From positions 1-38,912 of the forward strand of contig JAKMXF010000350.1 in NCBI GenBank assembly GCA_024704765.1: a stretch of DNA of 38,912 nucleotides, given 5' to 3'. The position numbers and the translations under genes were made by a program. The DNA is from Oopsacas minuta (Eukaryota > Animalia > Porifera). Shown here piece by piece: positions 1,649 to 16,300 of this stretch. Under the pieces are notes generated by a model. It was given only the letters and a program-made list of their open reading frames with translations, searched no databases and was not told the DNA's origin. Each line of letters opens with the position of its first letter. Position 1 is the first letter of the stretch.

Positions 1649-3575
1649 TTATAGCATCTGTAGACAGTTGTCTTCCTTCATGTCATCAACTGTAACATAG
1701 CCAGATGGTTCTATGAGTATGCAAGAGGGACAGAATATTTGGCACAGTCCATGTCCTGTCTCACAAACTGTTTCAATGAATTTACATTTCCGGTCAATCA
1801 CTTTGATGGAATTATCCCAGAAATCACATATGTATATTCTCCATTCATTTGTGATAGGATTATAGGACAGGTTGAAGTTGTATGCTCCTACTATCTGATC
1901 CTCTGTGAGTATGGACCTTATGAGTTCTCCTTCTGGAGAGAACATTTGTAGAGGAGAGGGAGATCCTGTGAAGAGACATATAACACAATCATCAACAGCC
2001 TTCATGTCCTGTAGCCATGGATACCTGTTGGGTATCTTGGTATGCAGGATAGGATTGAGTAAGTATTCTTGTTCTATACGGAGAGGATCTACCTGCATAA
2101 GGATGAGACTGGGCTTAAGAGTCCTCACATACAAATGCTTAAGGTTAGAGGAGGTACAACAAGCCTGTGGTATTGATATGGTGTGTTCAAGATTCATGCG
2201 AGATGTCTCTATACTATTTTTCCATGTTAAGCTGAATTGTACTAATAAACTTGTATAGCACACGAATACGGACTGTTTGAAGTAGGTCAATGAGGCAGGA
2301 GTATCAGGTAGATGAGGATCATGATGCGAATTATTGCTGCAAGATCATTAGCTCTGTAGAGTGTGACTCTATCACCGTATCCATCCGCTACTATTACGTT
2401 ATTCTCAAATATAATTATACCAGCTCGTGTATCTAATTGGTTGCCCATTTCTCCACCTCTATCAACGCCAGATGTTACAAGGATGTTTCTCTCTTCTTTG
2501 GGTGGAGCTATCCACAGGGGATAGTTATCAATGGTGATAGCAAAAGAAGGAATGTTTATCCTGTTGTTGTAATAGTGACGGATAACTCTGAGTAATAAAT
2601 CATATATATCCTTCAAATCCTTATCTTCCTTATTCTTCCTGATGAGATATTCTAGTGACCTAGCGTCTCTATACAGGAAAGATAGTTCATTGAATGTAAA
2701 AGTCACATCCTCCTCAACATGTGCATACCAATCCTCTATCACTTTGCACTTCTCTTCTATCCTATCTGCATTCCTGGTTTCCAACTCATCTCTAGCTATC
2801 GCATACTCCATATTAAGTCTGTTTAGCCTCATGTCATACCCCTGACATGTGATACCACCGGGAAGCAGATCTCTCTTGGATGGATTTACTGGTTTCATGT
2901 CTTCCTCTATTTCAAGATCTACATAGAAAATGAATTCTCCCTCAATCAATTGTGTCATTCCTTTCCTCATACAATCTGAACACCAAGGTTCTGGAATAGG
3001 ATAAGTCCTCATCTTTAAGATCTCTGCCTTCGGTCTCAGTCTCAGAGATTCGTATCTCTTTACTATCACACTCTCGATCGGTTCTGGGAGTTCAGGGTCT
3101 AGACTATACTGAATTCTATCAATCTTTTCCTCAGCTGTCCCCTTCCACATGATGAGACCGTTTAGGGAGTATAGGGAAGGTTCTGCTAGAGTCTCCTCTA
3201 TGTAGTAGAGGCTGTCTTTGTATTCAATAAGAAGGTAGTCATCGATGATTAGTAAAGATATTTTCTGGAAATGCTTGTCGTATCGCTCCTGGAATGAATC
3301 TTTGAGAGGGACAGGAGTATCATACTCGAGATTACGGATTCATAATCTTCGTAGAGAGGTGATAACGTGTTAACTATTCTAACACCTATTTTTATCTTAT
3401 ATGTCGCTATAATTGTTTCCATTTCATTGAGGATATTTGGTATCCTAACAATATTCCTGCACTCCTGTATTATTCCGGTATATCGTTCCTTCAAGGATAC
3501 ACGTGTTTTTGTGGACAGTACGGAGGCCTTCTTGCTATTTAGCGTTTCCATTTCCAACTGGAACCCTCTAGACAA
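1649..3575 (-). pseudogene. Coiled-coil + NHL-repeat (TRIM-NHL-like, no RING/B-box seen) gene read through three consecutive frames. Segment 3575-3249 (coiled coil, IIQECRNIVRIPNILNEME) joins 3322-2287 (coiled coil + first NHL blades) and then 2290-1649 (NHL blades). Each junction needs a one-base insertion, so it is either a pseudogene or carries local indel errors.
   Basis: ORFs 3249..3575, 2287..3150 (which extends upstream without a stop to about 3322) and 1649..2290 are collinear on the minus strand. Start-coordinate frames go 2->0->1. The 'M' codons of the last two ORFs are TTG. NHL-like blades: ILVTSGVDRGGEMGNQLDTRAGIIIFENNVIVADGYGDRVTLY, and NEWRIYICDFWDNSIKVIDRKCKFIETVCETGHGLCQIFCPSCILIEPSGYVTVDD. 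The coiled-coil segment is homologous to the N-termini of the genes at 4186-5409 and 5910-6800. First ATG is at 3551. Confidence 0.5.
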
Positions 3576-4185
3576 TTCGTAAATTTATTTAACTTGAATT
3601 TCTTGTAGTCAATGGACCGAATTTCCTTTAATCTATCCTCGTACTTTTTCAACATTTCTGAGCCTTTGAATGTGTTACCTAACTCATGTTTATTGTCAAT
3701 TCAAATATTCTTTGTAGTCAGTTCATATTTTAGTTAATAGAAATGTTGTAGCAGTTCTTTTTATAGAAATATCTCTTCGTTATTATTTGTATTATAATTA
3801 AGTTATACTTTCAATGTAAGTAGAACTTTCTATGTGAAGTAATGTGTTGCAAAAAGGTAGTAAATAAATCGAATAAACAACGAACAAACAAACAGAAATT
3901 AAGCAAATACTCAAAATCCGATAAATCTCAAAAACTCTCTTAAAACTATGATATTCACACATAATCTAAAAATACCAATCCTGTATATAACAAGTAACAC
4001 CTTATTAAGAAAGTGGTTCGTAATCGTCTTGCTTCCGTATGTAACACCTTCCAATCATATATGCCATGTATCTATAAATGATCACTAACAGATATAAATG
4101 TTCTTATACAACTGTTATAGAAAAGAAAGATAAATAGATAATAACATTGTAAATGTCATAAACCAGTACGAATAAATATAGATAA

Positions 4186-14910: not shown

Positions 14911-15229
14911 TGCCTCACCTTCCTCGCCCACTTCTCTCCCCTAGACCAGATATTTGATATTATTCCTTGACTAATATTTGATTTCTGGAATAATTCCAGA
15001 GTAGATTTACTGGGTAGGACAATTCATCGAAACAGTTTGTGAGACAGGACATGGACTCCGATAGGGCTGAAAGGGCTATCCTACTAAAATTATTTATTAG
15101 TGTATGATGGAACCTGCATAATTCGACACTCATTGGGGCATGAAAATTTTGGCAGTTTATCTAATTGTTGCATTATGCAGGTAAATTTGTATTGTCGGAA
15201 GCTATTTCAGATCAGAAACATTGGACGAA

Positions 15230-16300
15230 ATGACAGCAAGGCCTCAGCACTCGCCAGGTAGGAAATAGAATTGCTCGGACTGAAAGCCGAAACAGAGCTC
15301 CGTCTCCAGGTGAATGAATTCAATGAAACTCAATTAAGAATCCTAGCAGATCTCGAACAAACACTGAAGAGATTTGGAAACCACAGCCTGATAATCGAAT
15401 TATCTTTCGTTGCGATTCTAGACACTTGAAGGAGGTAACCTCAAGTGTGGGGGAGGTTATTGAGGTACACATTGTCCCCAGATACGAACTAATGAAACTC
15501 TTAGTTGATGTGGGAGGTATCTGGGAACCTAATGGTGTCGCTATAGACGAAAACACAGGTTTCTTATATGTCGCTAAGAGGTCAGGTAGAATCTCAATCT
15601 TCTCTGAGACAGGCGGCTTCCTAGATACCTTCACAAACCAAGTAATGGGAGAGCCACACGGTATAGCTATACACAGAGATAATCTGTACGTGATGGACAT
15701 GCAAGTATACGTATTGTTCCATTTTTAGTTTGAAGCCGGCATCCGTCTAGTCGCTACGTTTGGAGTGGTTATGGAGGGGCTGATATTCAGTTAAGTTTAG
15801 GGCATTAGGATCGTACGATCATTGATCGCTCGATCACGATCGCGATACTTTTTTGACGATCTGGCGATGATCGGCGATCATTGTTGTATTAAGGATCGGA
15901 TATAAGATCGCGATCCTTTTTTGCACAACAGTCATTTTTTCGATCATTTTTTGTATACTTTGAATGCTACTATCATTAGCGTTTTTTGTACTTAGGTAAT
16001 TTTTCCAAATTTGTGTTCAACAATCAGTAATATTCGTTCGTAGAATGCGTTGATTCTCCACCTATGTTTCTTTTGGCATAAGAAATGATGTAACTATCAA
16101 AAATATGTCTTGAGTATTACACAAACGATTGGAAAAAAGTATCGAGATCGGGATCGGCGATCATAATTTCAGCTAAGATCGCGATCTTGTTTAACACGAT
16201 CGACTAATGCCTTAGTTAAATTCCCCTCACGGTCTCACTGTCTCTAAACACGGAGATTTGTATATTGTAGATTATAGCAACTGGAGAATCAAAATCCTAG
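15230..16300 (+). pseudogene. Disrupted coiled-coil + NHL gene. ATG at 15230 (MTARPQHSPG, frame 2) joins the coiled coil at 15262-15426 (EIELLGLKAETELRLQVNEFNETQLRILADLEQTLKRFGN, frame 1), then NHL blades at 15399-15728 (frame 0), an in-frame TAG at 15727-15729, the MITE at 15797-16212, and an NHL blade continuing at about 16213-16300 (NSPHGLTVSKHGDLYIVDYSNWRIKILDS).
   Basis: The two frame changes are again single-base deletions (frame 2->1->0 on the plus strand). NHL motifs: GIWEPNGVAIDENTGFLYVAKRSGRISIFSETGGFLDTF, EPHGIAIHRDNLYVMDM. Removing the MITE plus one TTAA does not restore the frame. Confidence 0.5.
15797..16212. mobile_element. Non-autonomous TIR element (MITE, about 410 bp) flanked by TTAA on both sides (piggyBac-like target). 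TIR gtttagggcattagg… / …ctaatgccttag. The interior is rich in GATCG / CGATC palindromes.
   Basis: Left junction cagTTAAgtttagggcattaggatcg; right junction cgactaatgccttagTTAAattcc. The element lies inside the NHL-blade coding sequence. Confidence 0.6.

What the first reader, a model, noticed from the sequence alone, without database searches (positions are those of the whole stretch)
1649..16300. All nine frame breaks in four genes are single-base deletions, while neighbouring genes are intact
The P450 (four breaks), NHL gene 1649-3575 (two), NHL gene 15230-16300 (two) and ART copy 1 (one) each shift frame in the same direction, by -1 nt relative to an intact ORF. At least three sit in short homopolymers (aaa, cc, cccc). 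The FucT, PPT2, PAQR, coiled-coil/NHL gene 4186-5409 and ART copy 2 are uninterrupted. The strict directionality suggests either local assembly errors in homopolymers or genuine pseudogenes with the usual deletion bias. The non-uniform distribution across genes favours pseudogenes.
Basis: seen in the sequence. Interest (0 to 1): 0.55.

Follow-up and report, generated by a model that had tools for sequence, protein, structure and literature searches.

The report
Decaying gene copies in a glass sponge
Four genes in this stretch of the glass sponge Oopsacas minuta genome are broken almost only by single missing bases; at least two are certainly dead gene copies, so this is ordinary gene decay with a strong bias towards one-base deletions, not a new mechanism.

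Summary
The window is part of a 173-kb scaffold of Oopsacas minuta (Hexactinellida). Alignment against homologues with a frameshift-aware aligner finds 16 frame breaks, not nine. Fifteen are of the "one base missing" class: P450 5, NHL gene 1652-3699 4, NHL gene 15218-16640 5, ART-like copy 1 1. One is of the opposite class (about 16446).

NHL gene 1 has one or two in-frame stops and a lost first ATG. NHL gene 3 has at least four in-frame stops and a 425-bp TTAA-flanked MITE inside the reading frame. Both are therefore genuine pseudogenes.

The P450 and the ART-like copy carry only one-base deletions. The repaired P450 matches Pfam p450 end to end and keeps 69 of 74 family-invariant residues. 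It is either very recently dead or mis-assembled.

Uniform assembly error is excluded: 0 breaks in 7.55 kb of intact ORFs against 16 in 5.09 kb (P about 1e-11). Broken paralogues in three independent sister glass-sponge assemblies show the same bias (10 to 3). No reads were available, so patchy long-read error at the P450 and ART-like copy is not excluded. Interest is low.

The parts
7907..9374 (-). Intronless mitochondrial-clan cytochrome P450 with five one-base deficits (about 9351, 9153, 8982, 8467, 8389) and no in-frame stop. The start codon, the stop codon position, the I-helix AGVDTT, the ExxR motif (ETMR) and the haem motif FGTGPRMCVG are all retained.
   Evidence: The three-frame translation shows the frame order 1>0>2>1>0>2. 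tblastn and the frameshift-aware aligner against P0009-P0018 (55-60% identity for the closest, P0009-P0015) find four del1 events with collinear residues. The N-terminal MFR... of the homologues lies in a frame one step off from the body. The repaired protein matches PF00067 at E = 2e-74, profile positions 19-456 of 462. It keeps 69 of 74 family-invariant residues.
1652..3699 (-). Pseudogene of a 680-aa coiled-coil/NHL-like family that is expanded in glass sponges. It has four one-base deficits (about 3656, 3607, 3316, 2330), an in-frame TAG at 3681-3679, a probable in-frame TAA at 3587-3585, and TTG where the paralogues have ATG1 (3699-3697).
   Evidence: The O. minuta paralogues P0063-P0068 are 76-82% identical and collinear over 684 aa once four N are inserted. 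The GenBank model LOD99_9074 (P0073, 405 aa) covers only 3551-2290 and bridges the 3316 break with a gap.
15218..16640 (+). Heavily decayed pseudogene of a 410-aa coiled-coil plus NHL-propeller family. It has five one-base deficits (about 15246, 15368, 15766, 16349, 16511), one +1-class break (about 16446) and in-frame stops at 15259, 15726, 16407 and 16605.
   Evidence: Frameshift-aware alignment to the O. minuta paralogue P0145 and to the sister-sponge proteins P0146-P0156.
15795..16219 (.). A 425-bp non-coding insertion (421 bp plus the duplicated TTAA) with subterminal inverted repeats. It looks like a piggyBac-type MITE and sits inside the NHL3 reading frame between ...GADIQL and NSPHGL....
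   Evidence: TTAA is found on both sides (15791-15794 and 16216-16219). Removing the element restores a contiguous match to QFNYPHGL of the homologues. Inverted repeats lie at 15831-15854 and 16133-16156.
1..578 (+). 3' part of a DUF7587 ('ART-like') gene copy, cut by the start of the window, with one one-base deficit at about 217-218 (...VVFSDK | IPVEAV...).
   Evidence: Alignment to the intact copy 17418-18152 (53% identity) gives a single del1 at 218 and no stop.
4186..5409 (-). Intact NHL gene (LOD99_9075), used as a control together with 5910-6800, 11568-12773, 17418-18152, 20087-20941, 22110-23081, 23469-24287 and 28197-29048.
   Evidence: Exact matches to GenBank proteins KAI6646883, -884, -886 and -888 to -892. 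Pfam hits are NHL, Glyco_transf_10, DUF7587 and HlyIII.

Best explanation
These are genuine non-functional gene copies in the nuclear genome of the glass sponge Oopsacas minuta. There are three duplicated pseudogenes from large, fast-turnover lineage-specific families (two NHL-type families and DUF7587). The fourth is the decaying copy of a mitochondrial-clan P450 family for which no intact annotated O. minuta member was found.

Once selection was lost, the copies accumulated the usual neutral lesions. In this lineage the frameshifting lesions are overwhelmingly single-base deletions: 15 of 16 in the window, and 10 of 13 of the same frame class in sister species. Point nonsense mutations and a transposon insertion add to them over time.

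Shown: the lesions as they stand in the assembly, their direction, their restriction to these genes, and the extra disabling lesions in two of the genes. Inferred: that the P450 and ART-like lesions are real in the DNA rather than consensus errors, and that the bias is a property of mutation, presumably replication slippage or deletion-biased repair.
For: (1) NHL1 carries one or two nonsense codons and a lost ATG besides its 4 deficits. NHL3 carries at least 4 nonsense codons, a MITE in the ORF and a +1-class break besides its 5 deficits. Indel-type consensus error does not produce these.
(2) Breaks are confined to these genes: 0 in 7,554 nt of intact ORFs against 16 in 5,092 nt, Poisson P = 1e-11 under a uniform rate. 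A uniform error rate compatible with the intact ORFs would explain at most about 2 of the 16.
(3) NHL1 has lost 4 of 94 family-invariant residues, against 0-1 of 90 in its nearest paralogues. It is 3-5 points less identical to that clade than its members are to one another, which indicates mild relaxation.
(4) Broken paralogues in three other glass-sponge assemblies, on contigs of mostly 104-318x coverage, show the same spectrum: 10 breaks of the -1 class against 3 of the +1 class, including a gene with three one-base deficits and no stop (L007). This does not differ from the window (Fisher p = 0.30).
(5) The ratio of frameshifts to stops is about 2.5 to 1 in both data sets. A P450 with 5 deficits and 0 stops is therefore not aberrant (about 2 stops expected, P(0) about 0.13).
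(6) The assembly was built from 186x coverage with SPAdes --careful and then Pilon, so Illumina reads had two chances to correct indels (PMC10280926).
(7) Neither the P450 nor NHL3 has a gene model in the GenBank annotation, because no 100%-identity protein was returned.
Against: The P450 and ART-like copy 1 have no lesion other than one-base deficits. The repaired P450 looks fully functional: 69 of 74 invariant residues, all motifs, and start and stop in place. The assembly did include Canu-corrected PacBio CLR reads from other individuals, whose typical residual error is a one-base deletion. The bias in the window (15 to 1) is stronger than a mammal-like indel spectrum would give (p about 0.002 against 0.575). 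No reads or transcripts of O. minuta could be consulted.
Confidence: 0.72

Rival explanations
1. Mixed case. NHL1 and NHL3 are real pseudogenes, but the one-base deficits in the P450 and ART-like copy 1 (and perhaps some elsewhere) are residual consensus errors. They would come from stretches that hybrid SPAdes filled with corrected PacBio reads and that Illumina polishing did not reach. In that case the P450 is a functional gene that the annotation missed.
For: The P450 has five deficits but no stop, and it keeps motifs and invariant residues. Every lesion is exactly the error type of CLR consensus. PacBio and Illumina DNA came from different individuals. The bias of 15 to 1 exceeds typical pseudogene spectra.
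Against: It needs about 0.3% error in a 1.5-kb patch of an assembly at 186x coverage that was corrected twice, while 7.55 kb of neighbouring ORFs are error-free. The sites are not in long homopolymers, and runs of 5 inside the same gene are intact. The same deficit-only pattern occurs in a sister-species contig at 278x (L007). The same type of deficit occurs in the two genes that are dead on other grounds.
Confidence: 0.24
2. All breaks are assembly artefacts and all four genes are functional.
For: Only the uniform direction of the breaks and the use of PacBio reads in the assembly.
Against: Nonsense codons at 3681, 15259, 15726, 16407 and 16605, a lost ATG and a 425-bp MITE inside an ORF are not indel errors. 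The breaks are strongly non-uniform in distribution.
Confidence: 0.02
3. The genes are expressed through recoding, either programmed -1 ribosomal frameshifting or insertion of a base in the transcript. This would parallel the programmed frameshifts known in glass-sponge mitochondrial genes.
For: The direction is consistent, and the P450 keeps a conserved open frame on each side of every break.
Against: Thirteen of 14 sites have no X_XXY_YYZ heptamer in phase. The one heptamer found (9004) lies upstream of residues that are still encoded in the old frame. The sites share no motif. The same genes carry stops and a transposon. The mitochondrial cases known from my own background knowledge are +1 events at an extra base, which is the opposite situation.
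Confidence: 0.02

Closest known systems
Duplicated (unprocessed) pseudogenes in expanded gene families
   Same: There is clear homology to intact paralogues (76-82% for NHL1). The copies have frameshifts, premature stops, a lost start codon and a transposon insertion. They lie among intact family members, and one shows mild loss of conserved residues.
   Different: The frameshift spectrum is unusually one-sided: 15 one-base deficits against 1 break of the other class. Expression and population status are unknown.
Unitary pseudogene (last copy of a lost family), for the P450
   Same: No annotated O. minuta protein matched at E <= 1e-10, whereas one sister assembly has at least 16 paralogues. 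This fits the gene-poor, compact genome described in PMC10280926.
   Different: It carries only one-base deficits and shows no other sign of decay, so it is either very young or not dead at all. The absence of other copies was judged from the annotated proteome only, not from the genome sequence.
Indel errors of long-read assemblies that break ORFs (general knowledge; described for PacBio and Nanopore assemblies)
   Same: These errors are single-base deletions that split ORFs into overlapping pieces, and corrected CLR reads were part of this assembly.
   Different: Here the breaks avoid intact genes, are not tied to long homopolymers, and co-occur with substitution-type and insertion-type lesions. 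The assembly was Illumina-based and polished.
Programmed translational frameshifting in hexactinellid mitochondrial genes (own background knowledge, not checked here)
   Same: It occurs in the same animal class, and the genes have a disrupted frame.
   Different: Those cases are single extra bases (+1) at specific codons in mitochondrial genes. The breaks here are missing bases at unrelated sites in nuclear genes that also carry stops.

Membership tests
Pseudogene | Recognisable homology to a functional gene family over most of its length | tested here: met
   P450 aligns to residues 1-491 of homologues. NHL1 aligns over 1-684, NHL3 over about 19-390 of 364-414 aa, and the ART-like copy over 64-231.
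Pseudogene | Frame-disrupting indels relative to the family | tested here: met
   There are 16 breaks in four genes.
Pseudogene | Lesions other than small indels (nonsense codons, lost start, mobile-element insertion) | tested here: inconclusive
   Met for NHL1 (TAG at 3681, TAA at 3587, ATG>TTG) and for NHL3 (at least 4 stops and a MITE). Not met for the P450 or ART-like copy 1.
Pseudogene | Relaxed selective constraint | tested here: inconclusive
   NHL1 loses 4 of 94 invariant residues, against 0-1 of 90 in its close paralogues. The P450 keeps 69 of 74, within the range of intact members.
Pseudogene | Lesions present in the organism's DNA, and no functional transcript | not testable with these tools
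   No O. minuta reads, transcripts or Logan contigs are in the collections. The clusters hold only the GenBank proteins.
Long-read assembly indel error | Errors fall irrespective of gene function | tested here: not met
   0 breaks in 7,554 nt of intact ORFs against 16 in 5,092 nt, P = 1e-11.
Long-read assembly indel error | Errors concentrate in longer homopolymers | tested here: not met
   Runs at the sites are 1-4 nt, mostly 2-3, equal to the background. A5 and T5 runs inside the P450 are in frame.
Long-read assembly indel error | The sequence derives from an unpolished long-read consensus | tested here: inconclusive
   The paper describes a hybrid SPAdes --careful assembly of Illumina plus Canu-corrected PacBio reads, followed by Pilon. 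Which bases of this window come from which data cannot be known.
Programmed -1 ribosomal frameshift | Slippery heptamer X_XXY_YYZ in phase at the shift site | tested here: not met
   It is absent at 13 of 14 sites, and the single hit is misplaced.
Cytochrome P450 (PF00067), mitochondrial clan | Full-length match to the p450 profile with the haem-binding Cys motif; nearest named relatives are mitochondrial CYPs | tested here: met
   After repair, PF00067 matches at E = 2e-74 and FGTGPRMCVG is present. Named hits are CYP27B1-like, CYP49a1, CYP12 and CYP11A-like at 24-31% identity.

The most novel reading that the evidence does not exclude
Glass sponges (Hexactinellida) may have an unusually one-sided small-indel mutation spectrum, in which single-base deletions vastly outnumber all other frameshifting events. 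Pooled over the window and three sister assemblies, 25 of 29 breaks are of that class. This would be a measurable driver of the gene loss and genome compaction reported for O. minuta. The dead P450 would then mark the very recent loss of a whole mitochondrial-clan CYP family in this species.
Probability: 0.3. Interest if true: 0.4.

Novelty: already known. Interest (0 to 1): 0.2.

Why it matters
The main consequences are practical.

(1) Four loci in the O. minuta scaffold should be annotated as pseudogenes, or re-checked against reads. The GenBank model LOD99_9074 is a partial model built on a broken gene.

(2) Gene-content claims for this compact genome depend on telling real decay from assembly error. 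The P450 here is a concrete test case, because it appears to be the only copy of a family that has at least 16 members in a sister sponge.

(3) If confirmed with reads, the strong one-base-deletion bias would be a modest datum on mutation spectra in an early-branching animal lineage.

None of this is surprising to a specialist.

Tried and rejected
- Introns as the cause of the breaks. Rejected because ORF pieces overlap or abut, and homologue residues are collinear across each break with exactly one base missing. The homologues themselves are intronless.
- An alternative genetic code. Rejected because eight neighbouring ORFs are intact under the standard code and equal the GenBank proteins.
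- An independent read-level check through Logan, TSA or ENA copies of O. minuta. Nothing was found: the look-up of encoding contigs had no record for P0006, the clusters hold only the GenBank entries, and no hit above 64% identity was returned for the P450.
- dN/dS against paralogues. Not possible, because the paralogue DNA of O. minuta is not in the accessible collections. A leave-one-out count of family-invariant residues was used instead. It discriminates only weakly for the P450.
- BLAST out-of-frame mode is not available, so I wrote a protein-to-DNA aligner with frameshift states. With a very low frameshift penalty it over-fits the poorly conserved P450 presequence. The fifth P450 break therefore rests on the net frame offset of the MFR start codon, not on a precise site.
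- Homopolymer enrichment. Not distinguishable from background.
- Slippery-site scan. Negative.
- A search for further relics in the window with all 264 fetched proteins. Only the known loci were found.
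Full report
**Source of the window.** Eight intact ORFs of the window are, residue for residue, GenBank proteins KAI6646883, -884, -886 and -888 to -892 (LOD99_9075, 9076, 9078 and 9080-9084) of the glass sponge Oopsacas minuta, all on one 172,971-bp scaffold. This is a nuclear metazoan genome of about 35% G+C. Pfam and the source names confirm an NHL protein, a GT10 fucosyltransferase, a PAQR/HlyIII protein and PPT2. According to the genome paper, Illumina reads and Canu-corrected PacBio reads from different individuals were co-assembled with SPAdes --careful. 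The scaffolds were then polished with Pilon, at a nuclear coverage of 186x (PMC10280926).

**Checking the observation: P450.** On the minus strand, the P450 (7907-9374) runs through frames 1>0>2>1>0>2. Sixteen intronless homologues (55-60% identity for the closest full-length ones; P0009-P0024, from ENA assemblies of other glass sponges) align collinearly across each junction with exactly one base missing. A protein-to-DNA aligner with frameshift states, which I wrote for this purpose, returns four 'del1' events at about 9153, 8982-8991, 8467-8470 and 8390 with every full-length homologue. A fifth break follows from the start codon. The only ATG that gives the family's MFR... N-terminus (9374) lies one frame step away from ...SRTISTENILKRD.... 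Its exact site, near 9351, is not resolved. There is no in-frame stop. After repair the protein matches PF00067 almost end to end (E = 2e-74). It has AGVDTT, ETMR and FGTGPRMCVG, and its stop codon is at the same place as in the homologues.

**Checking the observation: NHL gene 1.** This gene has close O. minuta paralogues (P0063-P0068, 76-82% identity, 620-790 aa). Against them it extends to 3699, not 3575. It shows four one-base deficits, at about 3656, 3607, 3316 and 2330. TAG stands where the paralogues have Gln7 (3681-3679) and TTG where they have Met1. With most paralogues, TAA also stands at the codon aligned to residue 39 (3587-3585). The second stop can be avoided if the 3607 break is placed further downstream. 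The GenBank model LOD99_9074 (P0073, 405 aa) is a partial model of this locus.

**Checking the observation: NHL gene 3.** This gene belongs to a family of about 410 aa with one annotated O. minuta member (P0145, 53% identity) and more than 100 members in sister sponges. A 425-bp element (421 bp plus the duplicated TTAA, 15795-16219) sits exactly within ...GADIQL|NSPHGL.... I removed it before aligning. The best alignments then show del1 events at about 15246, 15368, 15766, 16349 and 16511, and one break of the opposite class at about 16446. They also show in-frame stops at 15259, 15726, 16407 and 16605.

**Checking the observation: ART-like copy 1.** This copy is cut by the window edge. It has one del1 at 218 relative to copy 2.

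**Tally.** In total there are 15 breaks of the one-base-deficit class and 1 of the other class (two-sided binomial p = 5e-4).

**Real lesions or assembly error?** No O. minuta reads or transcripts are reachable with these tools, so the direct test could not be run. The indirect evidence is as follows.

- NHL1 and NHL3 carry nonsense substitutions, a lost start codon and a transposon. Indel-type consensus error cannot create these, so both genes are dead regardless of the status of their frameshifts.
- The breaks are not spread at random: 0 in 7,554 nt of intact ORFs against 16 in 5,092 nt (Poisson P = 1e-11). A uniform error rate compatible with the intact ORFs could account for at most about two breaks. 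An artefact would have to be patchy on a 1-2-kb scale and to coincide with genes that are dead for other reasons.
- The sites are not in long homopolymers. Runs there are 1-4 nt, mostly 2-3, which is the background, and A5 and T5 runs within the P450 are in frame.
- NHL1 has lost 4 of 94 residues that are invariant in 23 relatives. Its nearest paralogues have lost 0-1 of 90.
- Broken members of the same families in three other glass-sponge assemblies show 10 breaks of the -1 class against 3 of the +1 class, and about 5-6 stops. These are ERZ25071281, ERZ25072730 and ERZ25766962, with contig names of hifiasm type and mostly 104-318x coverage. One gene among them has three del1 events and no stop (L007, 278x). 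That spectrum does not differ from the window's (Fisher p = 0.30).
- In both data sets frameshifts outnumber stops by about 2.5 to 1. A P450 with five deficits and no stop is therefore expected about 13% of the time.

Against this, the P450 shows no other sign of decay: it keeps 69 of 74 invariant residues, within the range of intact members. One-base deletions are also the signature error of CLR consensus. I therefore rate NHL1 and NHL3 as certain pseudogenes. I rate the P450 and ART-like copy 1 as probable pseudogenes, with about a one-in-four chance that their deficits are local assembly errors.

**Other readings.** Introns are excluded, because the ORF pieces overlap, the residues are collinear and the homologues are intronless. 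An alternative genetic code is excluded by the intact neighbouring ORFs. Programmed -1 frameshifting is not supported: 13 of 14 sites have no slippery heptamer in phase, and the only heptamer (TTTAAAG at 9004) precedes residues still encoded in the old frame. The sites share no motif.

**Comparison with what is known.** This is ordinary birth-and-death turnover in expanded gene families, plus one possibly unitary pseudogene. No annotated O. minuta protein matched the P450 at E <= 1e-10, while one sister assembly holds at least 16 paralogues. The only mildly unusual trait is how one-sided the frameshift spectrum is. Pooled over the window and the sister assemblies it is 25 of 29 (p = 1e-4 against 0.5). 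If read-verified, this would suggest a lineage-wide bias towards single-base deletions, in keeping with the compact, gene-poor genome reported for O. minuta.

**Verdict.** Novelty is low.

Noticed in passing
window 9424-9585: A 162-bp MITE-like element with 35-nt terminal inverted repeats (97% complementary, TA-rich flanks) lies about 50 bp upstream of the P450 start codon (9374). It may have disrupted the promoter or 5' UTR.
   Followed up: partly
window 14974-15058 (+): A short relic of the C-terminus of the NHL1 family (GQFIETVCETGHGL, 93% identical to P0068 residues 575-588) lies directly upstream of NHL3. It has a frame change between its two matching pieces.
   Followed up: partly
window 5910-6800 (+), LOD99_9076: This intact ORF shares the N-terminal coiled coil of the NHL family. 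It continues with three copies of a proline-rich unit (PPPDIPxSFLxGT...R/S-rich) instead of NHL blades. It has no Pfam hit.
   Followed up: no
O. minuta paralogue models P0102 (LOD99_4290), P0076, P0072, P0131, P0142: Several annotated paralogues of NHL1 are truncated or fused to unrelated domains (TRAF, FN3). The tail of P0102 matches the window in a frame other than the family frame (1985-1863, 93% identity), so that model reads out of frame. Broken copies of this family are therefore common across the assembly.
   Followed up: partly
L001 272-1731 / L005 9775-11251 and 11956-13415: In a sister glass-sponge assembly the P450 family sits in a tandem cluster. The cluster contains an intact gene, a copy with two stops, and a copy with a one-base deficit, next to a DDE_3 transposase ORF and scattered aspartic-protease fragments.
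   Followed up: partly
window 30135-33031 (+): A multi-exon gene with several PDZ-like exons (for example ...GFTVRGGREH......GDEVIEVNGKSF...) lies downstream. It shows that ordinary spliced genes are present and that the single-exon state of the family genes is a feature of those families.
   Followed up: no
Pfam reports only DUF7587 for copy 2 (E = 5e-9) and nothing for the repaired copy 1.
   Followed up: yes
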